The notes beneath the pieces were generated by a model. It was not told the DNA's origin. It ran no database searches and saw only the letters and a list, made by a program, of their open reading frames with translations. Below are positions 3,091 through 32,000 of a stretch of DNA of 32,000 nt, piece after piece. Positions within the stretch are counted from its first letter, which is position 1. Each line of letters starts with the position of its first letter. Both the position numbers and the translations under genes were made by a program. The stretch comes from Coprobacillaceae bacterium (GTDB lineage: Bacteria > Bacillota_I > Bacilli_A > Erysipelotrichales > Coprobacillaceae), in NCBI GenBank assembly GCA_963675515.1, contig OY776328.1, forward strand, positions 1,290,001-1,322,000, read 5' to 3'.

Positions 3091-3092
3091 CG

Positions 3093-17949: not shown

Positions 17950-17993
17950 ACAAAAAAAGGTATTAAACAACTATTGAATAGTTGCTTAATACC
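17950..17993 (-). terminator. rho-independent terminator of rpsD
   Basis: Long minus-strand hairpin GGTATTAAGCAACTATT-CAA-TAGTTGTTTAATACC (17959-17993) followed by a T7 run (plus-strand A7 at 17952-17958). Confidence 0.75.
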
Positions 17994-18009
17994 TAAATTT
18001 TTATTTGGG

Positions 18010-18615
18010 TTACCCCATTCTATTGTAGTACTCAACGATTAATGATTCATTGATTTCTTGGTTCAATTCTGATCTTTCAGGTAATCTAGTCATTTTACCT
18101 GTCAGTTTAGCTCCGTCAACTTCAACGAAAGCTGGTACATGAGTACGTCCTTCGATAGCTGCTTTGATAACTGCCATGTTTAAAGATTTTTCTCTGACTG
18201 CTACTACGTCACCAACGTTTACTTTCATTGATGGGATGTCAGCTTTGATTCCGTTTAAAGTGAAGTGTCCGTGGTTTACTAATTGTCTAGCTGCTCTTCT
18301 TGTAGGAGCGAATCCTAAACGGTAAACTACGTTGTCCAAACGGCTTTCCAGTAAGCAGAAGAAGTTGTAACCAGTGATTCCATCCATCTTAGATGCTCTT
18401 TTGAAAGTGTTGTGGAATTGTTTTTCGTTAACACCATACATATGTCTCACTTTTTGCTTTTCAGCTAATTGTGCCCCATATTCAGTTTGTTTTTTTCTTT
18501 TTTGTCCGTGTTGCCCAGGAGCGTAAGGACGTTTGTTTAGTTCTTTACCGTTTTCTAAAGTAGAGAATCCTAAACGACGTGATAATTTCCATTGTGGTCC
18601 AGTATAACGTGCCAT
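18010..18615 (-). CDS. rpsD: 30S ribosomal protein S4
   Basis: [16 protein letters not shown]...[10 protein letters not shown].(S/T)EYG.QL.EKQK.R..YG. GGAGGAAAAA ribosome-binding site. I start it at the internal ATG 18615 rather than at 18666. Confidence 0.95.
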
Positions 18616-18784
18616 TAATATTTTTCCTCCGTATATTGTTTTAGCAAGTAAAACAATAACATGCATAGATTATCCAGGTTGTGTCCATATTAAGTATTTC
18701 TCTTTGCAGCAAGATACTCTACAAACATTGGTTATGAACGCAATTGCTGAAACTCCATGTGCTGCTATCATTTATTGCCTTTCA

Positions 18785-18813
18785 ACTATAACGCAAGCCA
18801 ATGACAAAGTCAA
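18785..18813 (-). promoter_or_regulatory. rpsD promoter, leaving a leader of about 170 nt
   Basis: Minus strand TTGACT (18808-18813), 17-nt spacer, TATAGT (18785-18790). Confidence 0.55.
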
Positions 18814-18927
18814 GGTAAAAATGGATGAAATATTCGAATGTTTCATTGTTTTAGGATGATTGATTGCCTATTGACTTGGATCGGGTGAATTTGGGAAAAT
18901 GTCTGATTTTTACATGAGCAAGTCTTT

Positions 18928-18959
18928 TTGTTTCAAACTAGTGTCTTATGTGCTATACT
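18928..18959 (+). promoter_or_regulatory. putative extended -10 promoter for DUF3783-pyrF-pyrE
   Basis: TGCTATACT at 18951-18959 with a weak -35 (TTTCAA at 18931-18936). Confidence 0.4.
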
Positions 18960-19010
18960 TGTTGTAAGTATGGGGTATTTATGATATTCTAACTAATCGA
19001 GGTGAATACA

Positions 19011-19400
19011 ATGAAAGAATTAATCTTATTGGTAAATTTGGATGGAACCCAGGATGGCATCGCCATCGGTTCGATTGCCCGGAATTTGGGCGTGGATGTA
19101 AGGCATCTTGGCGACACTGATTTCAATCAGGAAGTCGGTTATCTTGTCGGTCTTGAGTCATATGACTTCGATGATGAGGCAAAGGTGACTTCGCTCGAGG
19201 AGAAGATGATGGTGCTTCACAATTTCTCGGATGAACAGATCGAACTGTTTTTGGATGTCTGCCGCCAGGCGGAAGTTTCGTACATTCCTTTAAAAGCAGT
19301 GACAACGCCGACAAACGTGCAATGGCGCTTTGTCGAGCTTTATAAAAACGTGAAAGCCGAATATGAAGAGATGCAACGGCTTCACTCAAGTGAAAATTAG
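19011..19400 (+). CDS. DUF3783 domain protein
   Basis: The pattern MMVLHNFSDEQIELFLDVCRQAEV.YIPLKAVTTPTNVQWRFVELYKNVKAEYEEM is typical of DUF3783 as I recall it. GAGGTG ribosome-binding site lies before the ATG at 19011. Confidence 0.7.
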   Translation: MKELILLVNLDGTQDGIAIGSIARNLGVDVRHLGDTDFNQEVGYLVGLESYDFDDEAKVTSLEEKMMVLHNFSDEQIELFLDVCRQAEVSYIPLKAVTTPTNVQWRFVELYKNVKAEYEEMQRLHSSEN

Positions 19401-19409
19401 GAGGGGCGC

Positions 19410-20120
19410 ATGAATTCTAGAGTATGTATCGCATTGGATTTTGATTCGACTGCAAAGGTGGTTGAATTTTTGGACTCGTTTCCCAAAGGTGAAAAGCTGC
19501 TGGTGAAAATCGGGATGGAAGTTTTCTATGGGCAAGGCTTGGAAATCATCAAGACGGTGAAAAGCTATGGCCATGACATCTTTCTGGATCTCAAACTTCA
19601 CGACATTCCCAATACCGTCAAATCGGCTATGAGCCAGCTGGCCAAGCTTGATGTGGATATTGTCAATGTCCATGCCAGCGGATCGATCGCGATGATGAAA
19701 GCCGCGATTGAAGGATTGGAACAGGGAAAAATCAAGGACAAGCGTCCACTTTGCATTGCGGTTACCTGTCTGACTTCGCTTTCGCAGGAAGTGTTGAACA
19801 AGGAACTTCTTATCGACAAGACTATCGATGAGACGGTGTTGCAGTTTGCCACCAATGCCAAAGAGGCGGGACTTGACGGGGTTGTCTGTTCGCCGTTGGA
19901 ATCGAAACTGATCCACGACAATCTGGGTCTCGACTTTTTGACAGTCACTCCAGGAGTGAGATTGAAGGATGATTCGACCGATGATCAACAACGGGTGACG
20001 ACACCAAGCGACGCTCGTGCGCTGACTTCAAGCTACATCGTCGTGGGCCGGCCGATAACCAGGGCAAACGACCCTTATGCAACATATAGAAAAATAGTAA
20101 GAGAATTCGAAGGGGAATAA
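19410..20120 (+). CDS. pyrF: orotidine 5'-phosphate decarboxylase
   Basis: CIALDF......F......[30 protein letters not shown] and VVGRPIT. Confidence 0.95.
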
Positions 20121-20122
20121 TA

Positions 20123-20755
20123 ATGGAAAAATTGATCGCAACACATTTATTGGATATTCAGGCAGTATTTTTAAAACCGAACGACCCGTTCACATGGGCG
20201 AGTGGAATCAAGTCACCGATTTACTGTGACAACCGCCTGACTCTTTCATTTCCAAGAGTCCGCAAAGATATCGAAGCCGGTCTTGCCAAACTGATCCAGG
20301 AAAACTATCCTGAAGTCGAGTGCCTGATGGGTACGGCGACAGCAGGAATCCCGCACGCGGCGTTGGTTGGAGACATTCTTGATCTGCCGATGGGTTATGT
20401 GCGCGGTGGTGCCAAAAGCCACGGCCGCAACAACCGCATCGAAGGAGTTGTCAAACCTGGCATGAAGGTTGTCGTTGTCGAAGACCTGATCTCGACTGGC
20501 GGTTCGTCGCTTGAGTGTGTCGAAGCCTTGAGGGAAGCCGGTTGCGAGGTGTTGGGTCTGGTTGCCATCTTCACTTACGGTCTGGCTAAAGCGGAAGCCA
20601 ATTTTGCCGCGGCAGACTGTTCTTACCGTACTTTGACCAATTACGATGCTTTAGTTGAAGTAGCTGTGGCTAAAGATTATATCGCGGAATCTGACAAAGA
20701 AAAGCTGTTCGCGTGGAAAAAAGACCCAAGCGACCAGTCATGGATGGACAAATAG
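20123..20755 (+). CDS. pyrE: orotate phosphoribosyltransferase
   Basis: [16 protein letters not shown] and the PRPP loop [14 protein letters not shown]. It starts 2 nt after the pyrF stop. Confidence 0.95.
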
Positions 20756-20762
20756 GCGCTTT

Positions 20763-21620
20763 ATGAACAACGCCAAAATCCGTTTTGATACAGCTACAGT
20801 TTTAAAAGAAGCTTTCCAGCCTTTGTTTTTGACTTTTCTGTTCATATTGCTCATCAACCAGGGGATCTCCACCTTCGCCTCGATGTTTGGCGATACGATC
20901 GGCCAGATACTGACGCTCATTGGAACAGTTGCGACATTGCCGTTGGCCCAGGGTCAGGTAAAAGCGGCATTGAAGGCGGTCAACAACCAGGTTGATGCCA
21001 TCGATCCCAAAGATGACGGTCTGGTGGGGCTTCGCCATTACACCCGCTATTTCTCGACCTATTTCGTGATTTTCATGATCACGCTTATGAGCGTGCTGGT
21101 AATCGTCCTGATCGGGGTGGTTCTTGTCATGGCGACCCAGGGAAATGTCCTGGCAAGTCTTGGTGACTACTATCTGACATTTACCGATGTCAACGCCCTG
21201 GTGGCGGCGATGCAAAGCGACGCGGCTTTGATGAGTGCGATCTATTCGACCCTTGGCATCATCCTGGTGATCCTTGCTTTGATCGGGATTGTGTATCTTT
21301 TCATCTACAGCCATATCGCCCTGGCGCCGTTCATCCTGGAAAAGTATGACTACCGCGGGTTTAAGGCTGTTACCACGAGTGCTGCATATATGAAAAACAA
21401 GAAGTGGGACCTGGTCAAGTTGATGATTTCCTTCATCCCCCACGCCTTGCTTGGGGTGCTGGCGATGACGTTCATTGACGGTTTCATTTCCAATGCCGTG
21501 CTTGCCTCGCTGATTTCAAGTATCGTATTTATCGCTATCTTGAACATCCGGTTCAAGGTCGCCTTGGCATACTTCTTCGAAGAGGCAGATATCGCCTATG
21601 AAGGATCGACGCATGAATGA
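20763..21620 (+). CDS. integral membrane protein, DUF975-like
   Basis: Multi-TM protein whose N-terminal layout resembles DUF975. This is a weak assignment made by eye. Confidence 0.55.
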   Translation: MNNAKIRFDTATVLKEAFQPLFLTFLFILLINQGISTFASMFGDTIGQILTLIGTVATLPLAQGQVKAALKAVNNQVDAIDPKDDGLVGLRHYTRYFSTYFVIFMITLMSVLVIVLIGVVLVMATQGNVLASLGDYYLTFTDVNALVAAMQSDAALMSAIYSTLGIILVILALIGIVYLFIYSHIALAPFILEKYDYRGFKAVTTSAAYMKNKKWDLVKLMISFIPHALLGVLAMTFIDGFISNAVLASLISSIVFIAILNIRFKVALAYFFEEADIAYEGSTHE

Positions 21621-22359
21621 CCGGTTGAGAATCGATGATTCCGTTCTCGCCGGGAAACTTACCGGTAACATGATCGCCTATGGCTACCTTACCGGCAGTG
21701 CGATGTACTTCTTTTCCGCTCCTTTGATCGGCCAATACCTGGCAGTCTTGCTGGTAGGCCATTATGGCAGTTACAACCTGCTTCTGGCGGTGTTAAACCT
21801 GTTTTTCCAGCTGATCATGCTTGTCACGATGATTGCCATCATGAAGGATTTCGTTATCGAAAGCTTCCGCCACTTTGCAAGAGGCTGGAAGGTCGAGCTG
21901 TTGTGGAGCTTCAGTGTCGGCTTTCCGGTGATGTTCATCATCAATGCCCTGCTTGGTGGGTTGGTTACCTTGTTTGTCTCGAGCGAGAGCGCCAACGAGG
22001 CTGCCATCACCCAGCAGGCCCAAAGCAACTTCGCGATAATTGTAATCACCTCGGTGATCCTGGCGCCGGTTGTGGAGGAACTGTTTTTCAGAGGGGTCAT
22101 CTTCCGCTCGCTGTCCCGGTACAATGTGGTGCTGGGCATGATTGTCTCATCGCTGGTTTTTGGATTCATCCATATATATCAGGCTTTGTTTGCGGGTGAT
22201 CTAAGCCAGCTGTACTACCTGATCCAATACGGCGGGATGGGTTTGGTGCTTTCCTGGGTGTACGTCACGAGGCGCAACATCTTTTCGGCCGTTGTCGTCC
22301 ACCTGCTCAACAATGCCATCTCGATGGTGCTGTTGTGGATTTCGTTTGGATTAATGTGA
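21598..22359 (+). CDS. CPBP family intramembrane glutamic endopeptidase (CAAX/Abi); alternative start ATG 21613
   Basis: Motif 1 PVVEELFFRG, motif 2 FGFIH and motif 3 HLLNN, set in a multi-TM protein. Confidence 0.85.
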   Translation: MKDRRMNDRLRIDDSVLAGKLTGNMIAYGYLTGSAMYFFSAPLIGQYLAVLLVGHYGSYNLLLAVLNLFFQLIMLVTMIAIMKDFVIESFRHFARGWKVELLWSFSVGFPVMFIINALLGGLVTLFVSSESANEAAITQQAQSNFAIIVITSVILAPVVEELFFRGVIFRSLSRYNVVLGMIVSSLVFGFIHIYQALFAGDLSQLYYLIQYGGMGLVLSWVYVTRRNIFSAVVVHLLNNAISMVLLWISFGLM

Positions 22360-22408
22360 TAGCGACTGGGAGTCTTATCAAGGGCTTCCGGTTTTTTTTG
22401 TGCGATAA

Positions 22409-22438
22409 TTGTAAACAAAGAGATAATTGTGGTAAAAT
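22409..22438 (+). promoter_or_regulatory. putative promoter of the jet operon
   Basis: TTGTAA (22409-22414), 18-nt spacer, extended -10 TGGTAAAAT (22430-22438). It lies about 30 nt upstream of the RBS/ATG at 22468. Confidence 0.45.
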
Positions 22439-22467
22439 GAATGAAATATTGTACCCGGGGGAATCAT

Positions 22468-23937
22468 ATGCAATTAGAACCAATCAAACAAACATCATAC
22501 CTGACAGCCTTGAACTGTCACCTGTATCGAAGGATCATGCGGATCGTCTATCTCGAGAGCACCCATTACAACTATCATCTCGACCTTGAGAAAATCATGG
22601 AGAAACTTGAAAATGACGGGTTCGATGGAGCCGTTGATGAGACGACGCTCAAAAACGCCCTTGATGCCCTGGTGGACTGGGGCAATCTGACCGCCATCCA
22701 GGATGCCAAACAGGTCAACACGATTGCCGAATTCAAGGCCCGCAAGTTCCGCTATTCGATCAGTGATGCCGCCCTGGAAGTCGAGCGGATGGTGATGAAA
22801 CTCGAAAACCTGACTGTAAAAAGCAACACCGCCTCGCTAGGCTATCTCAAGCGGCTGTACCAGGAATTCAAAAGGATCCTTACGATAAGCGATGCCAGCG
22901 ATATGCAGCTGCTCGAGTGGTGGGAGTATGTCGGAAACGATTTTGCGACCTTGAACCTGGTTTACAGCGACTATCTCCGGGATTTTTCCGGCGACCGGTC
23001 AGCGAAGCTGATGCAGTCGCTGGAGTTCTTGCAACACAAGGAGTACTTCGTCAAGATGCTCAAGGATTTCGTCACCCAGTTGCAGATTTATGCCATCGAG
23101 TTCGAGAAGATCCTGGTGAGCCTTGAGAGCGACTATGTCGACAATATCCTTGAGAGCATCATAACCGCCCAGAAGAAGAACCCGTCTTCGCTTGGTGCGC
23201 TTGAATACACCGATGAAAAATACCTGAGAGACGGGGTTTTTGGCCGCTACAGCGAGCTGCGAAGGTGGTTTGTCAAGTCACCAGGCAGCCAGAGTGAAGT
23301 TGAAGCGATCATGGATAGAACGAACATCATTATCCGCCAGATTATCCAGAATGCCGGCCTGATCATCGACTTCCATGAAGGGATAATATCAAAGAAGGAT
23401 GATTACCGCCATTACCTGAAACTCTTCGCCAGGATATCCGAGCTAAGTGAGGCCCACAGGCTGGCGGCCCATCTTTTCGGGGTCCATGACATCCGTCATT
23501 ACCAGACCAATGCGCCCCGCCTGAGCGAGAGCAGTGCCATTTCGACTTTCGACGAGGCGCCCCAGGTGTTCGAAGTCAAGCCGATGACCCGGAAATACCG
23601 GATCAAGCAGGAAAAAATCAGACTGGTCGACCGCTCGCTGGAAAAGCAACTCCAAAGCCAGGCCCATCAGGCGATGATTGCCGGTCAGATCAAGATCGCC
23701 AATACCTACATCAAGGCCAAACGGATCGACTTCAAGGACATCGTTGACGAAATATCGCCCTCGACCCGGCTGCTGCTGCTGTCGTGGGTAGCCAGCGCAT
23801 CGGGCACGATTGACAAGGTCGGCACAAGCGAGTTTGGCCGGCGCTTCAAACTAATGAGAATGGATGAGACAATCACGCTTCGCTGCAGTGATGGCGACCT
23901 TGAGATGCCCCGTTTCATCCTGGAATTCGAGGATTAA
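22468..23937 (+). CDS. jetA: Wadjet JetA-like protein (DUF2397 / TIGR02677-like; kleisin/MksF analogue), 489 aa
   Basis: First gene of the four-gene operon. The N-terminal YLTALNCHLYRRIMRIVY resembles the TIGR02677 start as I recall it. GGGGGAA ribosome-binding site lies before ATG 22468, so the ORF-track start 22441 is probably too early. Confidence 0.75.
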   Translation: MQLEPIKQTSYLTALNCHLYRRIMRIVYLESTHYNYHLDLEKIMEKLENDGFDGAVDETTLKNALDALVDWGNLTAIQDAKQVNTIAEFKARKFRYSISDAALEVERMVMKLENLTVKSNTASLGYLKRLYQEFKRILTISDASDMQLLEWWEYVGNDFATLNLVYSDYLRDFSGDRSAKLMQSLEFLQHKEYFVKMLKDFVTQLQIYAIEFEKILVSLESDYVDNILESIITAQKKNPSSLGALEYTDEKYLRDGVFGRYSELRRWFVKSPGSQSEVEAIMDRTNIIIRQIIQNAGLIIDFHEGIISKKDDYRHYLKLFARISELSEAHRLAAHLFGVHDIRHYQTNAPRLSESSAISTFDEAPQVFEVKPMTRKYRIKQEKIRLVDRSLEKQLQSQAHQAMIAGQIKIANTYIKAKRIDFKDIVDEISPSTRLLLLSWVASASGTIDKVGTSEFGRRFKLMRMDETITLRCSDGDLEMPRFILEFED

Positions 23938-23943
23938 GATAAG

Positions 23944-25053
23944 ATGATACCAAAGGAATTGCTTGAAAACTTCTGGGTCCAAAAAAGCGACGACCCCAAG
24001 AAGTTCTATCAGCTAAAAAGAGAACTCAAAGAGTCGCAAAGCTTCATCAACAACCAGATCGGCTGGAAAGTCATTGCCAATGACAATCTCCTCAAGATAG
24101 AAAAGACCCCTTACCTGGCTTCAAGCTACATGGGGATTGGAGAATTTAACGATGTCGACGATTACCTTTTCCTGGTGGCCACCCTGATCTTCCTTGAGGA
24201 CAAGGGCGTGCATGAGCAGTTTTTGCTTTCAGGCTACATCGAAGGAATCGAGGTCATCCTGGGCGATCTTGTCGAACTGGACTGGACGAGCTATTCTAGG
24301 CGCCGGACGCTGATCAGGGTCATGGAATACTGTCTAAGTCTTGGTCTGCTCAAGGTGACTGACGGTTCGCTGGATGGCTTCAAGAGCGGGGGCGAGGGCG
24401 AGGTGCTCTACGAGAACACCGGACTGTCGAAGTATTACCCGGTGAGTTTCAACTTCGATGTCACCAAGATCGAAGGGGTTGACGACCTGGTCGTGCAAGC
24501 CAATGAGTCGACCGACATCCTGCGCAACTGCGTCTATCAACTCCTTATCACCAGTCCGGGGGTGACCTGGAGCTCAAGCGAGGATGTCTTTGGCAAGTAT
24601 CTCAAGAACCAGCGTTTCAATATCCAGAAAAACATCGACCGCTATTTAAGCGGTGAGCTGATGATATTCAAGAACTCGGCCTATCTGATGGTCTCGAGCG
24701 ATGACAAATATGGAACCCTTCATCCCAGCGGCAAATCGATCAGTTCGCTGGTGCTGTTTGTCCAGAAGCGGATTGTTCAAAGCTGCAACGATGGCGAACT
24801 CAAGCTTTTGAGTGAGGATGTGATCGAGATAGGCGAGGAAGAATTTTCCAAGCTGGTGATCGGTGTTTACAACCAGGTTCTTCCGGGGTTGTCGATCGAG
24901 TATCGCAATATGGATATCGACAACGTGATCAAGGCGGTGGTTTGCTATATGGAGGAATTCCACCTGATCAGACGTGACGAAAATAAGATAATAATACAAG
25001 GGGCGGTGGCCCGTCATGAGGGAAGCTACCCTTATGATTTTGTGGAGGCGTAG
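23944..25053 (+). CDS. jetB: Wadjet JetB-like protein (DUF2398 / TIGR02678-like; MksE analogue), 369 aa
   Basis: The position, size and acidic character fit. It starts 6 nt after jetA, has a GAGGAT ribosome-binding site, and its stop abuts the jetC ATG. Confidence 0.7.
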   Translation: MIPKELLENFWVQKSDDPKKFYQLKRELKESQSFINNQIGWKVIANDNLLKIEKTPYLASSYMGIGEFNDVDDYLFLVATLIFLEDKGVHEQFLLSGYIEGIEVILGDLVELDWTSYSRRRTLIRVMEYCLSLGLLKVTDGSLDGFKSGGEGEVLYENTGLSKYYPVSFNFDVTKIEGVDDLVVQANESTDILRNCVYQLLITSPGVTWSSSEDVFGKYLKNQRFNIQKNIDRYLSGELMIFKNSAYLMVSSDDKYGTLHPSGKSISSLVLFVQKRIVQSCNDGELKLLSEDVIEIGEEEFSKLVIGVYNQVLPGLSIEYRNMDIDNVIKAVVCYMEEFHLIRRDENKIIIQGAVARHEGSYPYDFVEA

Positions 25054-28000
25054 ATGAAAGAAAGATGGCAGATGCATCGGATGGGACTTGTGAATTTCTG
25101 GTATTTCGATGACCAGGAGTTCGAGTTTGCCAATGGCAAGCTTCTGATCCGGGGACAGAACGGATCGGGGAAATCGATATCGACCCAATCGTTCATCCCG
25201 TTCATATTGGATGGCAACAAGGCACCATACCGGCTGGATCCCTTCGGGTCCAAGGACCGGCGAATGGAATATTATTTCCTGCTCGATGGCAAGAATGACG
25301 AATCGGTCGGGTATATCTGGCTGGAGTTCAAGAAGATGGGATCCGACCAGTACCGGACCCTGGTCATCGGACAGCGGGCCCGCAAGAACAGCGACATGCA
25401 GTTCTGGAGCGGCATCATCCTGGACAACCGCAGGATCAACCGCGACTTCCAGCTCAAAAAGCGCCTGGGCGACTCATGGGTTATCCTTGCCAAACAGGAA
25501 TTCAAAAACGCGCTGGGGGAAAGCAATTTCTACTCTGAGCGGGCGGTGGAGTACAAGGCCGCGGTCAACAAGCATATTTTCGGTTTCGACCAGCTGGAAC
25601 AGTACGACCAGTTCGTTGATCTGCTTATCAAGGTGCGGGCGCCCAAGCTTTCCAAGGAATTCAAGCCGACCAAGATCTACGAGATCTACAATGAAAGCCT
25701 CCAGGTGCTAAGCGACAGCGACATCCTGCCGATGGTCGAATCGATGGAAGAGATCGACCGGACCCAGGCTAAGCTCGATGAATTCCAGGCGACCAAAAAG
25801 GCGCTGGACAATGTCGGTCGCGTCTACAATGTATATAACCGCTACTACCTGGCCAAAAAGGCGCAAAATTACATCCGTCATCGCGATGAGTTCAAGGATC
25901 TTTCCAACCGGCTTATAGCCGGAGAGGGACAGTATGACGCCAACCAGAAAGCGATGGAGGAAATCGATAAAAGGACCGGTGAGCTAGGTGAAGCCAACTC
26001 CCTGCTCCAAACCGAAAGGGCCAGTCTCCCGCTTGATGATATCGAAGCCAAGATTGAAAGCTACAAACTAGCCAAGAGCGAAGTTCAAGATCAGGTAAAT
26101 GAACTCAAGGCGCTTCAAGTCAAACTCGACGGGGCCCTGGTGGAAAAAGATGTCAAAATCACCCAGCGCCGTCAACTTGAACAGGATGCAAGTGACTGCG
26201 AGTATCTCGCTTCAAAAGGGATCAAGGAACTTGACTCGATCAACGAGATTGCGAAATTGCCTGGACATCAAAAGATCCGCCGCCTGGAAAATCCCAATGA
26301 ACTTCTAGGCCAGTGCGACGAACTGGAAGGGGAGTTGAACAAGGTTGCCAAAAAGGTCGACCAGGTTCTTGGCTGCCTTGACTCGCGCCATCAAGAACAG
26401 CTAAAGCGTGATGAACTCGCGCAAGAGCTGTCTCATGTCAATGAACAGATCGCCCAAAGCAACAGTCTCCTTGATGGAAAGACCCGGGAGATTGAAAATG
26501 CCAAGGATGAGCTGATCAACCGGTTCTATCACTACGTCCAGGAGAATCACGCCCTGGATATTTCAAGCCGGACTGGCGATCTGGCCAATATTATCAGGGA
26601 ATACAAAGGCTATGGCGATTTCAAAATGATCGACCGGATCCTGGTGGAACTAAAAGGCGACCAGGCGATGACTTTAAGCAAGTCGGTGCTGGAGATGCGT
26701 TTTGCCTTGAACAACTTCCAGAAGGACAGGGATCTGCTTAACCAGGAACTCATCAGCCTCATCCAGGCGCAGGATCTGGAATACCCGGCCAATGATTCCG
26801 TTGGCCTGGGTCGGAAAATCCTCAAAGACAACGGGATTGATTTTATCAGTGTTTACCAGGCGTTGGAGTTCGACGAATCGCTTGGTGTCGAGTCAAAAAA
26901 CATCCTCGAAGCCCAGCTGGTAGCGACCAATCTGATCGATGCGATCATCGTCAATCATGAAAACTACCAGCAAGCCAAGGAGCTGTTGCGGGGTCATGAC
27001 CAGATCCTGGTGGCTCCTACAAGCCAGGGCCATAAGGGCAGACGGTTTGTAAGGGGGAACCATCCCCGCTTTGAATCGGAAATCGATGATTTCATCGCGA
27101 TGTTCGATGCCGATGAAAAATTCGGGCTTAACGGCCATTACCGCTACGGGCTGGTTGAAGGTTTCGTCTCATCCAGGCATGAAAGCGTCTATGTGGGCGA
27201 ACAGTCGCGCAAGGCCAATCGTAAAAGACAGATCGCTTCGATCGAAACAAAAATCGCCCTGCTCGAAAAACAGATCGCAACGGCCAGCCAGGAAATTGAC
27301 CAGCTCGAACAAGCCGGGATCAGGCTGGAGGAAGACTATGAAAGCCTCCAGGTATTCGACGGCCTCGACGAGTTGCTTGGACAGCTTGGTGAACTTGAAG
27401 CCTGGCTGATCCAGGCCGCCAGAAGGCAACAGGAGCTTTCCAACCAGGTCGAGCAAGTCAAGGCCAGGCTGGTGAAAATCAAGAACGACATGCTTGGACT
27501 GTCCCGGGACCTGCCATACCATCTTGAAAGTGGTATTTATCAGGATGTCAAAGAGAGCCTGGGCGACTATCGGACCGCATTGAACCAGGTGAACCGCGAA
27601 TTGCTTCTATGGCAGACCAAGAGTGTCCAGGTGCAAACGATCGGCGAGGTTGTCGACAAGATAAGTGAACAGGTCGATCAATTCTATGCCCTGACCCGCC
27701 AGGAAGAAAGCAGGATTGCCAAAAACCGCACCATTATCGCGACAATCGAAAACTACCTCAATCAAGAATCGACCAAGGAGCTTCATAAGCGGGTCAGAAG
27801 AATCGACGAAACGCTCGAAGTGAACGGGCTTGAACTCGAAGAACTCACCAGCCAGCGCCATCTATACCGGGAAGCGAATCTCCTGCTTGAGCGCGATATC
27901 GCCCTTATGGCAGGCCAGAAAGAAAAAGCGGAGGTCTGCCTCGATCTTTCAAGGGAACTGTTTGTCCAGGAACTTGACCTGGAATACGTGCCTGGGATAA

Positions 28001-29064
28001 TGGGCAATCTCGATGAACAGGCAAAAAAAGCCGGCGGGCTGCTTTTGCCAAATGAGGCGCAAAAAAGCGACAGCGAGCTGCTGCAGTCATTGAACGATGT
28101 CCAGCGCAACAATTTCTCGGCCTTGACCAACTATGGCATCAACACGGTTAAAATGTTCAAGGCCAATGAGTACAACCTGGTCTCCCAGCGTTACGCGATC
28201 GTGCTCAAGTACCAGAACAACACTGTCGACTTCTTCGAGTTTTACGAGAAGATCGCTCAGACGATCGAGAATACCCAGCTGCTTATCGTGGAAAAGGACA
28301 AGGAGCTTTTCGAGAAGTTCTTCTCCGACGCCCTGGCCAACAAGCTCATCCGCAAGATCAATGACGCCAAAAGCTGGGTCAAGGACATGAGTGAGCTGAT
28401 GGAGGATCTCAAGACGACATCCGCCATTTCTTTCTCGCTGGCATGGAAGCCCAAAGCGGCACTTTCCAGCGACGATCTTGCGACTATGGAACTGGTCCGG
28501 CTGCTTGAAAGCGACCGGGAGATATTGAGTTATGAGAACCTCAATGCCCTCTCGCAGCATTTTTCCAAACGGATCAAGCTGGCCAAACAGGAATATCTCG
28601 AAAATGACATCCAGGAGTTCAATTACGGCGACCTGGTGCGCCAGGCCCTGGATTACCGGGAATGGTTTGAGTTTTGCCTTTATTACAGGCGGGCCGGTTC
28701 TGTCAAGAAGGAACTTACCAATTCAGCTTTCAACGTCCTTTCCGGGGGTGAGAAGGCGATGGCAATGTATGTTCCGCTGTTCACGGCGGTCAATGCCCAG
28801 TACAAGAAATCATCTAAGCTGGACTTCCCAAGAATCATCGCCCTTGACGAGGCCTTTGCCGGGGTCGACAGCGAGAATATCTCGTCGATGTTCGACCTGG
28901 TTGAGAAACTGGATTTCGACTTCATCATGAATTCGCAGGTGCTTTGGGGCACTGATGGAGCGGTCAAGGAACTTGCGATAGCCGAGCTGTACCGCCCGCT
29001 CAACTCCCAGGTCGTATCGACCATAAACTACCACTGGAACGGAAAGGTCAAGACGCTGTTATGA
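25054..29064 (+). CDS. jetC: Wadjet JetC-like SMC/MukB-type ABC ATPase (TIGR02680-like), 1336 aa
   Basis: The N-terminus reads RWQMHRMGLVNFWYFDDQEFEFANGKLLIRGQNGSGKS, with the Walker A at 25153-25176. The C-terminus carries the signature LSGGE (28738-28752) and Walker B IIALDE (28834-28851). About 1190 residues of E/K/Q/L-rich, coiled-coil-like sequence lie between them. Confidence 0.9.
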   Translation: MKERWQMHRMGLVNFWYFDDQEFEFANGKLLIRGQNGSGKSISTQSFIPFILDGNKAPYRLDPFGSKDRRMEYYFLLDGKNDESVGYIWLEFKKMGSDQYRTLVIGQRARKNSDMQFWSGIILDNRRINRDFQLKKRLGDSWVILAKQEFKNALGESNFYSERAVEYKAAVNKHIFGFDQLEQYDQFVDLLIKVRAPKLSKEFKPTKIYEIYNESLQVLSDSDILPMVESMEEIDRTQAKLDEFQATKKALDNVGRVYNVYNRYYLAKKAQNYIRHRDEFKDLSNRLIAGEGQYDANQKAMEEIDKRTGELGEANSLLQTERASLPLDDIEAKIESYKLAKSEVQDQVNELKALQVKLDGALVEKDVKITQRRQLEQDASDCEYLASKGIKELDSINEIAKLPGHQKIRRLENPNELLGQCDELEGELNKVAKKVDQVLGCLDSRHQEQLKRDELAQELSHVNEQIAQSNSLLDGKTREIENAKDELINRFYHYVQENHALDISSRTGDLANIIREYKGYGDFKMIDRILVELKGDQAMTLSKSVLEMRFALNNFQKDRDLLNQELISLIQAQDLEYPANDSVGLGRKILKDNGIDFISVYQALEFDESLGVESKNILEAQLVATNLIDAIIVNHENYQQAKELLRGHDQILVAPTSQGHKGRRFVRGNHPRFESEIDDFIAMFDADEKFGLNGHYRYGLVEGFVSSRHESVYVGEQSRKANRKRQIASIETKIALLEKQIATASQEIDQLEQAGIRLEEDYESLQVFDGLDELLGQLGELEAWLIQAARRQQELSNQVEQVKARLVKIKNDMLGLSRDLPYHLESGIYQDVKESLGDYRTALNQVNRELLLWQTKSVQVQTIGEVVDKISEQVDQFYALTRQEESRIAKNRTIIATIENYLNQESTKELHKRVRRIDETLEVNGLELEELTSQRHLYREANLLLERDIALMAGQKEKAEVCLDLSRELFVQELDLEYVPGIMGNLDEQAKKAGGLLLPNEAQKSDSELLQSLNDVQRNNFSALTNYGINTVKMFKANEYNLVSQRYAIVLKYQNNTVDFFEFYEKIAQTIENTQLLIVEKDKELFEKFFSDALANKLIRKINDAKSWVKDMSELMEDLKTTSAISFSLAWKPKAALSSDDLATMELVRLLESDREILSYENLNALSQHFSKRIKLAKQEYLENDIQEFNYGDLVRQALDYREWFEFCLYYRRAGSVKKELTNSAFNVLSGGEKAMAMYVPLFTAVNAQYKKSSKLDFPRIIALDEAFAGVDSENISSMFDLVEKLDFDFIMNSQVLWGTDGAVKELAIAELYRPLNSQVVSTINYHWNGKVKTLL

Positions 29065-30341
29065 TCGAAGAGTGCGCAGCCTACTTCAAGGCGAAGCCGG
29101 AATTCGACCGGGTCTTCATCCTGATGAAAAAGCAGTGGGAGAAGTACGGCCGGATTGCCGGTTACATAATTCTAAACAAGCCAACAGCCGGCGAAAAGGA
29201 TGTCCTGTCCAAGTTTTTGCATCAGGATTTTGGCTATCCCGCCAATCTGACCAAGATCAGGTTCAAGATGGCTGACTTCCAGGAAGCGCTGGAGATAACA
29301 AGGTTCAAAAAACTTGATTTAAAGGAAATCCTTGACGCCTACTTCCAGGTGGAAATATCGACGACCGGCCACAAACGGATGGCCGCTCAAAAAAAACAGG
29401 CCGATTTTTTCGGGGAGCTGGCACAGCTGATAAGCCAACCGCAGGTGGCAAACTGGTTTGACTGGCTGCGCCATTCCAAAAGCAGCGGCTATGTCCTGAT
29501 AAAGTCATTGGCCAAAGAAGACGAACAGGCAGCGCGCCAGGCGATCAAGGCGGTAGATGACGCTGTTGCCTGTCTTGATGAAAGTGCTTTTGCTCTGGCG
29601 GTTCTAAGTGCCCGGGTTACGGGCAATCCCCACTATTTCGACCGCAACACCAAGCCGGGGAGGCTGCTTATAAGTTGCCTCGCCCATATCCACAAGCTTG
29701 CAACGCCAGGCCATGCCCAGGGGATATTGGAACTGTACGCTTTGGCCAAAATAACGCCGGATGACATCTCGTCGAGTGTGGTCATCAAAAACATCGATCT
29801 TTTTCAAGGGGATAAAATCCATCCTGGGGTAGCCGGATTCAATGAGCTAAACGAGCCTTGCGTGGTGACCCTGGGAAATCTGGCGAACGTCAGCTTTGCT
29901 TCAAGCAAGCCCTGTGTTTTTGTTTTTGAAAACCAGATGGTCTTTTCCCATCTGGCAAGCGAGCGCTTCTACAACTGCTCCCTGGTATGCACTTCGGGGC
30001 AGCTCAAGGTCGCGGCATTGAAGCTTTTCGAGATGCTTGACAAGGATGTGAAAATTTTTTACAGCGGCGATTTCGATCCCGAAGGCCTGCAGATAGCCGA
30101 CAAGCTTCTAGGCCGTTTTTCCAACGTGGAGCCGTGGGGTTTTGATGAGGAACTCTACTTCCAGGCGCTTTCAAACGAGAACATCAGCGAGATCCGTCTT
30201 TCCAAGCTCGATTCGCTTAATGACTCGCGGTTAAAAGAAGTGGCCAAGGCGATCAGGGAAAACAAGCTGGCCGGTTACCAGGAAAATATCCTCGATTTCT
30301 ATCGTAAAGACATTCTCAGGATCATTGCGGAAAACCAATAA
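29061..30341 (+). CDS. jetD: Wadjet JetD-like protein (DUF2399 / TIGR02679-like) with C-terminal Toprim nuclease domain, 426 aa
   Basis: ATGA start/stop overlap with jetC. The Toprim glutamate sits in VFVFENQ (GAA at 29928-29930) and the DxD in SGDFDPEG (30069-30077). Confidence 0.85.
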   Translation: MIEECAAYFKAKPEFDRVFILMKKQWEKYGRIAGYIILNKPTAGEKDVLSKFLHQDFGYPANLTKIRFKMADFQEALEITRFKKLDLKEILDAYFQVEISTTGHKRMAAQKKQADFFGELAQLISQPQVANWFDWLRHSKSSGYVLIKSLAKEDEQAARQAIKAVDDAVACLDESAFALAVLSARVTGNPHYFDRNTKPGRLLISCLAHIHKLATPGHAQGILELYALAKITPDDISSSVVIKNIDLFQGDKIHPGVAGFNELNEPCVVTLGNLANVSFASSKPCVFVFENQMVFSHLASERFYNCSLVCTSGQLKVAALKLFEMLDKDVKIFYSGDFDPEGLQIADKLLGRFSNVEPWGFDEELYFQALSNENISEIRLSKLDSLNDSRLKEVAKAIRENKLAGYQENILDFYRKDILRIIAENQ

Positions 30342-30343
30342 TG

Positions 30344-30377
30344 ACCATCGCGCCTTCTTGGGCCCGGTGGTTTTTTC
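30344..30377 (+). terminator. rho-independent terminator of the jet operon
   Basis: GC-rich hairpin ACCATCGCGCC...GGCCCGGTGGT (30344-30371) followed by a T6 run, immediately after the jetD stop. Confidence 0.65.
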
Positions 30378-30453
30378 GATACTGAAAGGGTCTTGATTCT
30401 GGTTATCCAAAATAGAGGCGGATTCCAACAGATAACCGGGCATGATTATTAAA

Positions 30454-30485
30454 TTGTGCCAAAAGTTATTATTTGATGCTATAAT
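30454..30485 (+). promoter_or_regulatory. putative extended -10 promoter for the GyrI-like gene
   Basis: TGCTATAAT at 30477-30485. The -35 is poor. Confidence 0.4.
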
Positions 30486-30545
30486 CTAGTTAGCGACAGG
30501 CAATCGGGATGGCAATTGCATCTAAAAATAGAAGGAGATGGATTT

Positions 30546-31004
30546 ATGGCATTCATCATGGAAATAATAGAAACTAATGAACAGCCGGTTCTCACAGTCA
30601 GGACAACGACATCGGTTGAAAACCTGCCCAATATCCTCGGTCCGATTTTCGGGGAGATAGCAGGCTACATCATGGCCCAGGGGCAGGAACCGCTGGGACC
30701 GGCATTTATCGCGTACCACAATATGGATATGAACAATCTTGATATCAAAATCGGCTTCCCGGTGGCCGCACCTTTGCCAGGAAATGACCGGATCAAGGCT
30801 GGCTTCATTCCGGCTGGGAAAAGGGCCACCACCTTCCACAAGGGAGCTTATGGGGATATCGGACCGGCCTACCAGGCGTTGGGCGAGTTTCTGGTCAAAG
30901 AAGGCTACGAGGCCACCGGGATAGCTTACGAATATTACTACAATTCACCTGGGGAAGTGCCTGAAAGCGAATTGTTGACGAAGATCGAATTTTTGCTTAA
31001 ATAA
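30546..31004 (+). CDS. GyrI-like small-molecule-binding domain protein
   Basis: The pattern EQPVLTVRTTTSVENLP..LGPIFGEI..Y....G....GPAF..YHN.D...LDI.IGFPV...GAYGDIGPAYQAL..F...GYE is typical of GyrI/AraC-E-binding domains. GAAGGAG ribosome-binding site lies before ATG 30546. Confidence 0.8.
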   Translation: MAFIMEIIETNEQPVLTVRTTTSVENLPNILGPIFGEIAGYIMAQGQEPLGPAFIAYHNMDMNNLDIKIGFPVAAPLPGNDRIKAGFIPAGKRATTFHKGAYGDIGPAYQALGEFLVKEGYEATGIAYEYYYNSPGEVPESELLTKIEFLLK

Positions 31005-31031
31005 GATAAGTACCGTTGCCTGTTTCATCGC

Positions 31032-31061
31032 ACAAAAAAAAGCTCCTTTTTGGGAGCTTTT
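31032..31061. terminator. bidirectional terminator between convergent genes
   Basis: Stem AAAGCTCC/GGAGCTTT (31039-31060), flanked by an A-run upstream and a T-run downstream. The minus-strand reading has the stronger T tract. It overlaps the HAD gene stop codon. Confidence 0.65.
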
Positions 31062-31707
31062 AACGTTTTTCCAGGTAGTCGATCACGTGATTTAGACTTG
31101 GCAGGATTTCAGTTGCGAGTTGGGCCGGTTGCCCTTCGATGGTGACCATGTCCGGGATGGCGATGACTTTGACATCAGCCAAAAACGATGCCATGATGCC
31201 AGCTGGCGAATCCTCGAGGACATAGGCTTCATGGGATTCGATATTTAGCTTCTTGATCGATTCCAAAAAGATGTCCGGTGCCGGTTTGCCGTTTTTGATC
31301 TCGTCGCCACAGATAACGTCATTGAAGTAGTGAGTCAGGTTGGCTTTGTCGAGAATATGGTCAACGCGGTGGCGTGAAGACGAAGTTGCAACCATGGTAA
31401 GGTAGTTGTTTGTCTTGAGGTAGTCGAGCAGTTCGAGCAGACCGGGTTTGATGGTCGGGCCGACTGTGTCGAATTCCTTGGCGATCAGCTCGTAGACATC
31501 GGATACAAGTTTCTTGCAGTCGACTTTCCTGTAGCTTAGCTGCAGGCGGTTGAGGTTGTCTTTATGATTGGAACCGATCATCGAGCGGTAGAATTCCTCG
31601 CTCATCGATTCTCCTTGTAATTTTAACAGGTGGTTATAATAATTGTAAGTGGTGCGCTCGCTGTCGATCATCAAGCCGTCCATATCAAAAATTATCGCTT
31701 TTATCAT
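31060..31707 (-). CDS. HAD-IA family hydrolase (beta-phosphoglucomutase/phosphatase-like)
   Basis: Motif I IIFDMDGLMIDSE, motif II VATSS, and the motif III/IV region KNGKPAPDIF...VLEDSPAGI. Confidence 0.85.
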   Translation of the reverse strand: MIKAIIFDMDGLMIDSERTTYNYYNHLLKLQGESMSEEFYRSMIGSNHKDNLNRLQLSYRKVDCKKLVSDVYELIAKEFDTVGPTIKPGLLELLDYLKTNNYLTMVATSSSRHRVDHILDKANLTHYFNDVICGDEIKNGKPAPDIFLESIKKLNIESHEAYVLEDSPAGIMASFLADVKVIAIPDMVTIEGQPAQLATEILPSLNHVIDYLEKR

Positions 31708-31782
31708 TGGTATCTCCTTGTTTGTTGTGGGTCCATATTATCACAAATGTTTGTGGAATTAAAGTCTTTCCAGAATTTGAAA

Positions 31783-31807
31783 ATAAAAAAACGTCCCATA
31801 GGAACGT
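31783..31807 (-). terminator. terminator downstream of the tRNA genes
   Basis: Minus-strand hairpin ACGTTCC-TAT-GGGACGT (one G-U pair) followed by a T7 run (plus-strand A7 at 31784-31790). Confidence 0.5.
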
Positions 31808-31819
31808 ATGTTTTTTAGT

Positions 31820-31896
31820 TGGCGGTCTGGACGGGACTCGAACCCGCGACCTCCGCCGTGACAGGGCGGCATTCTAACCAACTGAACTACCAGACC
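31820..31896 (-). tRNA. tRNA-Asp (anticodon GUC), 77 nt with encoded CCA
   Basis: The reverse complement GGTCTGGTAGTTCAGTTGGTTAGAATGCCGCCCTGTCACGGCGGAGGTCGCGGGTTCGAGTCCCGTCCAGACCGCCA folds as a cloverleaf with anticodon loop CTGTCAC. Confidence 0.95.
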
Positions 31897-31904
31897 AAAA
31901 AATA

Positions 31905-31995
31905 TGGCGGAGACAGAGAGATTTGAACTCTCGCGCCAGTTACCCGACCTACGCCCTTAGCAGGGGCGCCTCTTCAGCCTCTTGAGTATGTCTCC
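31905..31995 (-). tRNA. tRNA-Ser (anticodon GCU), 91 nt with long variable arm and encoded CCA
   Basis: The reverse complement is GGAGACATACTCAAGAGGCTGAAGAGGCGCCCCTGCTAAGGGCGTAGGTCGGGTAACTGGCGCGAGAGTTCAAATCTCTCTGTCTCCGCCA. Its anticodon stem-loop is CGCCC-CTGCTAA-GGGCG and it has a 19-nt variable arm. Confidence 0.9.
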
Positions 31996-32000
31996 AGGTT

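What the first reader, a model, noticed from the sequence alone, without database searches (positions are those of the whole stretch)
22409..30377. Complete four-gene SMC-ATPase/Toprim operon: a Wadjet-type (JetABCD / MksBEFG-like) anti-plasmid system
Seen in sequence:
- Four co-directional genes of 489, 369, 1336 and 426 aa carry their own promoter-like element and terminator.
- They are packed for translational coupling: a 6-nt gap, then TAG directly followed by ATG, then an ATGA overlap.
- The 1336-aa protein has a Walker A (GQNGSGKS) within its first 41 residues. Its ABC signature (LSGGE) and Walker B (IIALDE) lie in the last roughly 110 residues.
- About 1190 residues of coiled-coil-like sequence separate them, giving an SMC/MukB/Rad50 architecture.
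- The last gene ends in a Toprim fold (E in VFENQ, DxD in GDFDPEG).

Established knowledge:
- This composition matches Wadjet (Doron et al. 2018): a kleisin-like subunit, a KITE-like subunit, an SMC-like ATPase and a Toprim nuclease.
- Later work (Deep et al. 2022; Liu et al. 2022) showed it recognises small circular DNA by loop extrusion and cleaves it with JetD.
- From memory, the DUF2397 / DUF2398 / TIGR02680 / DUF2399 combination is the type II Wadjet flavour. That flavour is far less studied than type I.

Inference: this locus restricts plasmid establishment in the host.
Basis: partly seen in the sequence, partly recalled or inferred. Interest (0 to 1): 0.9.

Follow-up and report, generated by a model that had tools for sequence, protein, structure and literature searches.

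The report
Intact type II Wadjet anti-plasmid operon

Summary
Four co-directional genes (489, 369, 1336 and 426 aa) lie at 22468-30341 with the stated junctions, a conserved promoter-like site and a terminator hairpin.

All four proteins match the type II Wadjet models in PADLOC over nearly their full length: JetA2 5.8e-131, JetB2 7.1e-103, JetC2 at 1145 bits, JetD2 2.2e-127. JetA, JetB and JetC are full-length sequence homologues of the Neobacillus vireti Wadjet-II complex solved by cryo-EM (PDB 9QE0/9QE1).

- **JetC:** it has Walker A, signature and Walker B motifs. Its AlphaFold model shows two long helical arms around an alpha/beta hinge and matches nvJetC best.
- **JetD:** its model (pLDDT 92.5) matches MksG, JetD-I, topoisomerase VI-A and Spo11. 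The Toprim E290 and D337/D339 are invariant in 43 homologues.
- **Selection and inheritance:** the genes are under purifying selection (dN/dS 0.08-0.19). They sit at the same housekeeping locus in two related Erysipelotrichaceae-like genomes.

The mechanism is inferred from the N. vireti work, not shown here: ATP-driven loop extrusion senses small DNA circles, and JetD then cleaves them.

Two corrections. The stretch between the ATPase motifs is not all coiled coil. Type II is no longer uncharacterised. Verdict: a new member of a known kind, of low interest.

The parts
22409..22438 (+). Promoter-like site: TTGTAA, 18-nt spacer, TG-n-TAAAAT (extended -10)
   Evidence: Consensus scan gives 9/12 plus TG. 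The TGTAAA and TGnTAnAAT cores are conserved in L001 and L002.
22468..23937 (+). jetA (489 aa): type II kleisin subunit (DUF2397 / TIGR02677)
   Evidence: Pfam 3.8e-101. NCBIfam 203 bits, above the 165.85 cutoff. PADLOC JetA2 5.8e-131. PDB 9qe0_E JetA 3.4e-48 over residues 4-488. Start codon conserved.
23944..25053 (+). jetB (369 aa): type II KITE subunit (DUF2398), homologous over its full length to the tandem-KITE nvJetB
   Evidence: Pfam 2.7e-65. PADLOC JetB2 7.1e-103. PDB 9qe0_D JetB 2.1e-41, residues 6-366 against 20-382. NCBIfam TIGR02678 scores 92 bits, below the 124.65 cutoff.
25054..29064 (+). jetC (1336 aa): SMC-family ATPase (TIGR02680)
   Evidence: NCBIfam 627.9 bits, above the 462.85 cutoff. 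PADLOC JetC2 1145 bits. PDB 9qe0_A JetC 1.5e-143, residues 3-1335 against 5-1356. The AlphaFold fragment model matches 9qe0 at 4.6e-35, then condensin, MukB and Smc5/6.
25153..25176 (+). JetC Walker A, GQNGSGKS (residues 34-41, lysine K40)
   Evidence: Conserved in the homologues of alignment A2.
26794..27198 (+). JetC hinge, alpha/beta domain (about residues 581-715), between the two long helical arms
   Evidence: AlphaFold secondary structure, fragment residues 411-545.
28738..28851 (+). JetC ABC signature LSGGE (1229-1233) to Walker B IIALDE (1261-1266)
   Evidence: Pfam SbcC_Walker_B 1e-22. SGGEK and ALDEAFAGVD are conserved in A2.
29061..30341 (+). jetD (426 aa): nuclease with a helical N-terminal domain (DUF3323, CAP-like) and a C-terminal Toprim domain (DUF2399)
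   Evidence: Pfam 3e-42 and 5.3e-24. PADLOC JetD2 2.2e-127. AlphaFold pLDDT 92.5. Foldseek hits: MksG 8b7f 2.1e-8, JetD 7til 2.8e-6, Topo VI-A 1.5e-5, Spo11 3.8e-4.
29928..30077 (+). JetD Toprim metal-binding residues: E290 (29928-29930) and D337-x-D339 (30069-30077)
   Evidence: Invariant in 43 homologues at 33-81% identity.
30343..30378 (+). Intrinsic terminator: 13-bp bulged hairpin followed by U6
   Evidence: dG -17.8 kcal/mol, z = -2.78. The hairpin arms are retained in L001.

Best explanation
The locus is an intact chromosomal type II Wadjet (JetABCD-II) operon in an Erysipelotrichaceae-like Bacillota genome.

**Shown here**
- Four translationally coupled genes encode a kleisin (JetA), a large KITE protein (JetB), an SMC ATPase with two long helical arms and a hinge (JetC), and a CAP-like/Toprim nuclease (JetD).
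- All catalytic motifs are present, and the genes are under purifying selection.

**Inferred from the reconstituted Neobacillus vireti type II system and from type I systems**
- JetA, JetB and two JetC chains form a motor unit, and two units dimerise through JetA.
- The complex loads on DNA and extrudes loops using ATP.
- On a small circular molecule (up to tens of kilobases) extrusion runs to completion and stalls. The chromosome and linear DNA do not cause this.
- The stalled complex recruits and activates the JetD dimer.
- JetD cuts the DNA without sequence specificity, probably with Mn2+, and so blocks plasmid establishment.
For: **Family assignment**
- PADLOC type II models match all four proteins over nearly their whole length.
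- The matching Pfam and NCBIfam families were found.

**Solved relatives**
- JetA, JetB and JetC are full-length sequence homologues of nvJetABC, PDB 9QE0/9QE1.

**JetC**
- ATPase motifs are present and conserved.
- The arm-hinge-arm model matches nvJetC, then condensin, MukB and Smc5/6.

**JetD**
- The model matches MksG, JetD-I, Topo VI-A and Spo11.
- E290, D337 and D339 are invariant.

**Operon and evolution**
- The gene order is conserved in L001, L002 and a Lachnospiraceae genome.
- dN/dS is 0.083-0.188, with dS like that of the neighbouring genes.

**Plasmid survey**
- In 72,556 plasmid records, JetD-II relatives occur on only 9. All 9 are at least 149 kb, which fits a system that destroys small circles.

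**Published activity**
[quoted passage not shown] It needs ATP, JetABC, JetD and Mn2+ (bioRxiv 10.1101/2025.03.10.642339).
- Deleting the native jetABCD in Clostridium cellulovorans raises conjugation about 1e5-fold (PMC12287153).
Against: - No activity was or can be measured here. Expression in the host is unknown.
- JetC and JetD are only about 36% and about 40% identical to the bulk of the family. The structure-based alignment of the arms to nvJetC has 19% identity. Substrate range and metal requirement could therefore differ.
- TIGR02678 (92 bits against a 124.65 cutoff) and TIGR02679 (175.5 against 196) fall below NCBIfam's curated cutoffs.
- The locus is fixed at a housekeeping position rather than in a mobile or defence island. 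This is compatible with defence but not typical of it.
Confidence: 0.9

Rival explanations
1. The system is a domesticated, MksBEF/MukBEF-like chromosome-organising condensin. It happens to retain a nuclease gene, and its main job is chromosome folding or segregation rather than plasmid restriction.
For: - The operon sits at the same housekeeping locus (rpsD-pyrF-pyrE ... jetABCD-GyrI-HAD) in three genomes that span 100-67% JetC identity. Its dS is like that of its neighbours, so it has been inherited vertically for a long time.
- No other defence genes lie next to it.
- The N. vireti paper notes a MukBEF-like geometry and hinge in type II, and proposes that Muk/Mks arose from Wadjet.
Against: - JetD is retained full-length under purifying selection (dN/dS 0.19), with invariant Toprim residues.
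- All four proteins score best on the Wadjet type II models.
- JetC and JetD diverge faster than their neighbours: 64-67% identity where pyrE is 96%. That fits a conflict gene better than a housekeeping gene.
Confidence: 0.04
2. It is a different SMC/Rad50-type system: Wadjet type I or III, Lamassu, or an SbcCD/Rad50-Mre11 repair nuclease.
For: Weak secondary hits only:
- JetC1 9e-18, C-terminal head only;
- JetD1 2.4e-8;
- JetD3 1.6e-5;
- LmuB 1.2e-4;
- Rad50 1.3e-3, residues 7-41 only.
Against: - The type II models outscore all of these by hundreds of bits and cover the full lengths.
- The window holds no Mre11/SbcD phosphoesterase gene and no Lamassu effector gene.
- The solved relative found by sequence is the type II complex only.
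Confidence: 0.01
3. It is a decaying or silent relic: an intact-looking operon that is not expressed or no longer active.
For: - Other genes in the window look disrupted: a split group II intron reverse transcriptase, a split P-type ATPase and a truncated transposase.
- There is no expression evidence.
Against: - All four reading frames are full-length against their profiles.
- All catalytic motifs are intact.
- dN/dS is 0.08-0.19 against two relatives.
- The promoter core, ribosome-binding site and coupling junctions are conserved.
Confidence: 0.05

Closest known systems
Neobacillus vireti LMG 21834 type II Wadjet (nvJET-II; PDB 9QE0/9QE1; bioRxiv 10.1101/2025.03.10.642339)
   Same: - Same four-gene composition and the same protein families.
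- Full-length sequence homology for JetA (3.4e-48), JetB (2.1e-41) and JetC (1.5e-143).
- Similar sizes: JetB 369 against 388 aa, JetC 1336 against 1371 aa.
- The JetC arm and hinge model matches nvJetC best (E 4.6e-35, TMq up to 0.51).
   Different: - The sequences are diverged. The structure-based alignment of the arms has 19% identity.
- The host is an Erysipelotrichaceae-like anaerobe, not a Bacillus relative.
- Activity, Mn2+ dependence, the tandem-KITE fold, the channel-less hinge and the elbow position were not tested for this copy.
Type I Wadjet / MksBEFG (E. coli GF4-3 and P. aeruginosa PA14 JetABCD; C. glutamicum MksBEFG)
   Same: - The same logic: kleisin, KITE, SMC ATPase and a Toprim nuclease.
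- The JetD model matches MksG (8b7f, 2.1e-8) and PA14 JetD (7til, 2.8e-6).
   Different: - The protein families differ. Only weak or partial profile hits were found (JetC1 9e-18, JetD1 2.4e-8).
- No PDB sequence hit for JetD.
- JetB is about 370 aa, a single tandem-type KITE, against about 240 aa.
- In N. vireti, JetD and JetABC are not interchangeable between the two types.
MukBEF / MksBEF chromosome condensins
   Same: - SMC ATPase with kleisin and KITE partners.
- The JetC model matches MukB structures (9gm7, 7nyx, about 1e-10).
   Different: These lack the nuclease subunit and act in chromosome organisation. This locus has an intact, conserved JetD.
Topoisomerase VI subunit A / Spo11
   Same: The JetD model shares the CAP-like plus Toprim fold (1d3y 1.5e-5; 8urq 3.8e-4) and the Toprim acidic residues.
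   Different: JetD is a nuclease partner of an SMC motor, not a topoisomerase. nvJetD does not stay attached to the cut ends.

Membership tests
Wadjet type II (JetABCD-II) | Four co-directional genes in the order jetA-jetB-jetC-jetD, forming one operon | tested here: met
   ORFs and junctions. A promoter-like site and terminators bracket the operon. The same order is seen in L001, L002 and L003.
Wadjet type II (JetABCD-II) | JetA of the DUF2397 / TIGR02677 kleisin family | tested here: met
   Pfam 3.8e-101. NCBIfam 203.2 bits, above the 165.85 cutoff. PADLOC JetA2 5.8e-131. PDB nvJetA 3.4e-48.
Wadjet type II (JetABCD-II) | JetB of the DUF2398 family, large (about 370-390 aa) tandem-KITE type | tested here: met
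   Pfam 2.7e-65. PADLOC JetB2 7.1e-103. Full-length homology to nvJetB, 2.1e-41. Caveats: NCBIfam TIGR02678 scores 92 bits, below the 124.65 cutoff; the four-WHD fold was not modelled here; the two halves show no BLASTP similarity, as was also reported for nvJetB.
Wadjet type II (JetABCD-II) | JetC of the TIGR02680 family: ABC-type head with Walker A, signature and Walker B motifs | tested here: met
   NCBIfam 627.9 bits, above the 462.85 cutoff. PADLOC JetC2 1145 bits. Motifs at 34-41, 1229-1233 and 1261-1266, conserved in homologues.
Wadjet type II (JetABCD-II) | JetC with long antiparallel coiled-coil arms and a hinge (SMC architecture) | tested here: met
   AlphaFold fragment, pLDDT 81.3: long helices at 221-571, 716-976 and 1060-1118 around an alpha/beta hinge at 581-715. 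Best fold matches are nvJetC at 4.6e-35 (TMq 0.38-0.51), then condensin, MukB and Smc5/6. Antiparallel packing follows from these matches; I could not inspect coordinates.
Wadjet type II (JetABCD-II) | [quoted passage not shown] | not tested
   This needs inspection of model coordinates or a dimer model. Only overall fold similarity to 9qe0 is available.
Wadjet type II (JetABCD-II) | JetD with DUF3323 (CAP-like) plus DUF2399 Toprim domain and conserved E and DxD | tested here: met
   Pfam 3e-42 and 5.3e-24. PADLOC JetD2 2.2e-127. E290, D337 and D339 invariant in 43 sequences. Model matches MksG, JetD, Topo VI-A and Spo11. Caveat: NCBIfam TIGR02679 scores 175.5 bits, below the 196 cutoff.
Wadjet type II (JetABCD-II) | ATP-dependent cleavage of circular but not linear DNA; restriction of plasmids in vivo | not testable with these tools
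   Shown for nvJET-II and for native C. cellulovorans jetABCD. Inferred for this locus.
Wadjet type I / type III | Best matches to the JetA1-D1 or JetA3-D3 families | tested here: not met
   Only partial or weak hits: JetC1 9e-18 (C-terminal head), JetD1 2.4e-8, JetD3 1.6e-5. No JetA or JetB hits of type I or III.
MukBEF / MksBEF condensin | Three-gene SMC-kleisin-KITE set without a nuclease subunit | tested here: not met
   An intact jetD overlaps jetC by ATGA and is under purifying selection.
Lamassu (LmuB with an effector) | LmuB SMC-like protein with an LmuA effector and no kleisin/KITE pair | tested here: not met
   LmuB hits reach only 1.2e-4 and 3.7e-4. Kleisin and KITE are present, and no Lamassu effector is present.
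SbcCD / Rad50-Mre11 | Rad50-type ATPase paired with an Mre11/SbcD phosphoesterase | tested here: not met
   Rad50 models match only residues 7-41 or 7-56, at 1.3e-3 to 4.8e-3. No phosphoesterase gene is in the operon.

The most novel reading that the evidence does not exclude
In this Erysipelotrichaceae-like lineage the type II Wadjet operon is not a mobile defence cassette. It is a long-standing, vertically inherited resident of a housekeeping locus, at the same position in genomes whose synonymous sites are already near saturation. Divergence rises steadily along the operon: JetA 80%, JetB 73%, JetC 67%, JetD 64% identity, where pyrE is 96%. The most novel reading not excluded is that this copy has taken on a host function as well as or instead of plasmid restriction, such as chromosome folding or resolution of small chromosomal circles. 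Alternatively, its fast-evolving JetC arms and JetD have shifted its substrate range.
Probability: 0.06. Interest if true: 0.5.

Novelty: new member of a known kind. Interest (0 to 1): 0.2.

Why it matters
- **Practical use:** an intact Wadjet-II predicts that this organism and its close relatives will resist small plasmids. Anyone trying to make this gut-type Erysipelotrichaceae lineage genetically tractable would do well to delete jetABCD or use linear or integrative DNA. Deleting the native system in C. cellulovorans raised conjugation about 1e5-fold.
- **Research use:** it adds a diverged type II sequence, about 36-40% identical to the main clade, for comparative work on SMC arms, the hinge and the tandem KITE.
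- **Limit:** it changes nothing in what is known about how Wadjet works.

Tried and rejected
- **Naming the source genome.**
  - JetD and JetC are 100% identical to database proteins on a 2,881,239-bp NCBI/ENA contig.
  - The look-up of encoding contigs had no record of the JetD protein, and the cluster look-up gave no name.
  - The host is therefore only placed near an Erysipelotrichaceae MAG, at 83.6% nucleotide identity over 14 kb.
- **PDB sequence search with JetD.** It found nothing even at E = 1. I therefore built a model and compared folds instead.
- **Internal duplication in JetB.** BLASTP of the two halves found no similarity (E 7.6). This is uninformative, because the nvJetB lobes are also reported as strongly diverged.
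- **Heptad periodicity in JetC.** A crude Fourier measure gave clear 3.5-residue signals at about 267-322, 379-490 and 715-860 but was noisy elsewhere. The AlphaFold model superseded it.
- **Defence island test.** A PADLOC scan of ten neighbouring ORFs matched only a DEDDh exonuclease 13 kb away, so the island idea was rejected.
- **Horizontal transfer signal.** GC and GC3 of the jet genes (0.49-0.52 and 0.63-0.70) match the flanking genes. There is no compositional sign of recent acquisition.
- **Literature.** The Doron 2018 paper is not held, and a text search for Wadjet with the DUF names found nothing. The 'type II' label rests on PADLOC model names and on homology to nvJET-II.
- **Internal promoter.** The promoter-like site inside jetC at 27974-28001 (10/12 plus TG) was treated as a chance match inside coding sequence.
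Full report
**Observation**

The window holds four co-directional ORFs on the + strand: 22441/22468-23937, 23944-25053, 25054-29064 and 29061-30341.

I read the junctions directly.
- jetA TAA is followed by six bases (gataag) and then jetB ATG.
- jetB TAG is followed at once by jetC ATG.
- jetC and jetD overlap in ATGA at 29061-29064.

That ATG follows a GGGGA ribosome-binding site. It and the following codons are conserved in two related loci, while the upstream ATG at 22441 is lost in one of them.

A promoter-like site lies at 22409-22438: TTGTAA, an 18-nt spacer, TG-n-TAAAAT. As a consensus match it is not remarkable, since the region has 16 such sites against 8.3 +/- 2.8 in shuffles. Its core is nevertheless conserved in three loci.

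The upstream gene has its own terminator at 22364-22393. After jetD, a bulged hairpin at 30343-30372 plus U6 folds at -17.8 kcal/mol, z = -2.78. The next gene has its own conserved TGCTATAAT promoter. The four genes therefore form a self-contained transcription unit at the coordinates given.

**Identity of the proteins**

| Protein | Pfam | NCBIfam | PADLOC |
|---|---|---|---|
| JetA | DUF2397, 3.8e-101 | TIGR02677, above cutoff | JetA2, 5.8e-131 |
| JetB | DUF2398, 2.7e-65 | TIGR02678, 92 bits, below the 124.65 cutoff | JetB2, 7.1e-103 |
| JetC | SbcC_Walker_B, 1e-22, plus AAA_29 | TIGR02680, 627.9 bits, above the 462.85 cutoff | JetC2, 1145 bits |
| JetD | DUF3323, 3e-42, plus DUF2399, 5.3e-24, plus a weak JetD_C hit | TIGR02679, 175.5 bits, below the 196 cutoff | JetD2, 2.2e-127 |

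The PADLOC matches each cover almost the whole profile. Type I and type III Wadjet, Lamassu and Rad50 models give only weak or partial hits.

Against solved structures, JetA, JetB and JetC each match one complex over their full length. That complex is the Neobacillus vireti Wadjet-II JetABC, PDB 9QE0/9QE1, at 3.4e-48, 2.1e-41 and 1.5e-143.

**JetC**

- Walker A GQNGSGKS is at residues 34-41, with the lysine at K40.
- The ABC signature LSGGE is at 1229-1233 and Walker B IIALDE at 1261-1266.
- These motifs are conserved in a sample of 33 homologues.

I modelled residues 171-1180 with a 34-sequence alignment, which gave a mean pLDDT of 81.3. The model shows:
- long helices at about 221-571;
- an alpha/beta hinge at about 581-715;
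- long helices at about 716-976 and 1060-1118.

Its best structural matches are nvJetC chains A and B (4.6e-35 and 2.7e-34; TMq 0.38 and 0.51). Condensin Smc2/4, MukB, Smc5/6 and cohesin follow.

It also corrects one detail. The 1187 residues between Walker A and the signature motif include head segments and a hinge, not only coiled coil.

**JetD**

No solved structure matches JetD by sequence. With a 43-sequence alignment the AlphaFold model has pLDDT 92.5. It consists of a helical N-terminal domain followed by an alpha/beta domain from about residue 239.

Foldseek finds, in order:
- the C. glutamicum MksG nuclease (8b7f, 2.1e-8);
- P. aeruginosa JetD (7til, 2.8e-6);
- topoisomerase VI-A (1d3y, 1.5e-5);
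- Spo11 (8urq, 3.8e-4).

E290 (in VFENQ) and D337 and D339 (in GDFDPEG) are invariant across homologues that are 33-81% identical.

**Context and evolution**

The nearest genome in the species collection is a MAG labelled Erysipelotrichaceae bacterium. It is collinear with window 17947-32000 at 83.6% nucleotide identity.

A more distant metagenomic contig (JetC 67% identical) has the same order: rpsD, DUF3783, pyrF, pyrE, DUF975, Rce1-like, jetABCD, GyrI-like, HAD. A Lachnospiraceae genome (JetC 37%) has the same four genes in the same order, but next to serine recombinases.

| Protein | Identity to the 83% relative | Identity to the 67% relative |
|---|---|---|
| pyrE | 96.7% | 95.7% |
| JetA | 91% | 80% |
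| JetB | 90% | 73% |
| JetC | 83% | 67% |
| JetD | 80% | 64% |

(All.)

- dN/dS against the closer relative is 0.083, 0.091, 0.140 and 0.188 for jetA to jetD.
- Their dS (0.63-0.75) is like that of the neighbours.
- GC and GC3 match the flanks.

In this lineage the operon is therefore vertically inherited and under purifying selection. It evolves faster than core metabolic genes, and fastest in the motor arms and the nuclease.

In the wider database, JetC has more than 1,400 relatives at E <= 1e-20. Identity falls from 67% straight to about 36-37%, so this is a small diverged sub-lineage of a large family.

A PADLOC scan of ten neighbouring ORFs found no adjacent defence system.

JetD-II relatives occur on only 9 of 72,556 plasmid records, and all 9 are at least 149 kb. 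This fits a system that removes small circles.

**Mechanism**

*Shown here:* the parts list, the motifs, the folds, the operon structure and the selection.

*Inferred from the N. vireti reconstitution (bioRxiv 10.1101/2025.03.10.642339) and from type I work cited there:*
- JetA1B1C2 motor units dimerise through the JetA N-terminus.
- They hydrolyse ATP and extrude DNA.
- Circular DNA, whether supercoiled, nicked or artificially circularised, is cleaved at random positions. Cleavage leaves short 5' overhangs.
- Cleavage requires ATP, JetABC, JetD and Mn2+.
- Linear DNA is spared, and restriction wanes for circles of about 50 kb and more.
- JetD and JetABC of different types are not interchangeable.

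[quoted passage not shown] I put 0.9 on this locus being a functional type II Wadjet that works this way.

**Rivals**

- *A nuclease-bearing condensin domesticated for chromosome work.* The fixed housekeeping position favours it. The conserved JetD and the fast-evolving JetC and JetD count against it (0.04).
- *Another SMC/Rad50 system.* The profile scores and the missing partner genes exclude it (0.01).
- *A silent relic.* Full-length frames, intact motifs and low dN/dS argue against it (0.05).

**Comparison and novelty**

The locus meets every sequence-testable defining feature of type II Wadjet. Biochemical activity and the finer type II structural traits (four-WHD KITE, channel-less hinge, elbow position) were not tested.

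It is a new member of a known kind. Its high interest score is not, because type II Wadjet now has a solved structure and a characterised activity.

**Value**

The main practical value is as a predictor of poor plasmid uptake in this lineage.

Noticed in passing
window 569-3096 (+): A group II intron: Rfam D1-D4 match at 569-747 (109.8 bits) and domain V/VI match at 3012-3096 (61.6 bits). Its reverse transcriptase/maturase-HNH reading frame is split into two overlapping frames, 1203-1958 and 1843-2997. The RVT_1 profile is broken at about nt 1880-1900. This is either a frameshifted pseudogene or an indel error in the assembly.
   Followed up: partly
window 4798-7411 (-): A P-type cation ATPase appears disrupted. 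The N-terminal domain is in ORF 6998-7411. The rest is in ORF 4798-6759, in a different frame. The first ~71 positions of the E1-E2_ATPase profile are missing between them.
   Followed up: no
window about 12300-17900: A low-GC stretch (29-36% against about 50% around it). It carries an IS200/IS605 pair (TnpA 14625-15053, TnpB/Cas12f-like 15031-16179), a weak MqsA-like ORF (16432-16866) overlapping a SocA/Panacea-domain ORF (16797-17501), and several ORFs with no family hit. Collinearity with the related MAG L001 begins only at 17947. The stretch looks like a lineage-specific insertion next to rpsD.
   Followed up: partly
window 11617-12261 (-): A truncated IS256-family (Transposase_mut) gene. 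Only profile positions 18-200 of 379 are present.
   Followed up: no
window 29061-30341 (JetD residues Y8 and Y94): Two tyrosines in the CAP-like N-terminal domain of JetD are invariant in all 43 type II homologues. Type I JetD is described as lacking the catalytic tyrosine of topoisomerase VI-A/Spo11. nvJetD does not stay bound to cut ends, so they are probably structural. I could not check whether either one superposes on the Top6A/Spo11 catalytic tyrosine.
   Followed up: no
window 22468-30341 compared with L001 and L002: Protein divergence rises monotonically along the operon: JetA 91/80%, JetB 90/73%, JetC 83/67%, JetD 80/64% identity. dN/dS rises from 0.083 to 0.188 against L001. This may reflect stronger diversifying pressure on the motor arms and the nuclease.
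   Followed up: partly
window 30516-31004 (+): A stand-alone GyrI-like small-molecule-binding protein lies directly downstream of jetD in all three syntenic genomes. It has its own conserved promoter (TGCTATAAT, 30477-30485) and is absent next to the Lachnospiraceae operon. This is probably lineage synteny, not a functional link.
   Followed up: partly
window 8248-8799 (-): A DEDDh (RNase T / DnaQ-like) exonuclease matches PADLOC's CRISPR-associated DEDDh model (5.1e-38) and candidate system PDC-S48 (1.6e-27). No cas genes or other defence genes lie nearby in the window.
   Followed up: no
window 31820-31995 (-): tRNA-Asp (GTC) and tRNA-Ser (GCT) genes at the window edge.
   Followed up: no
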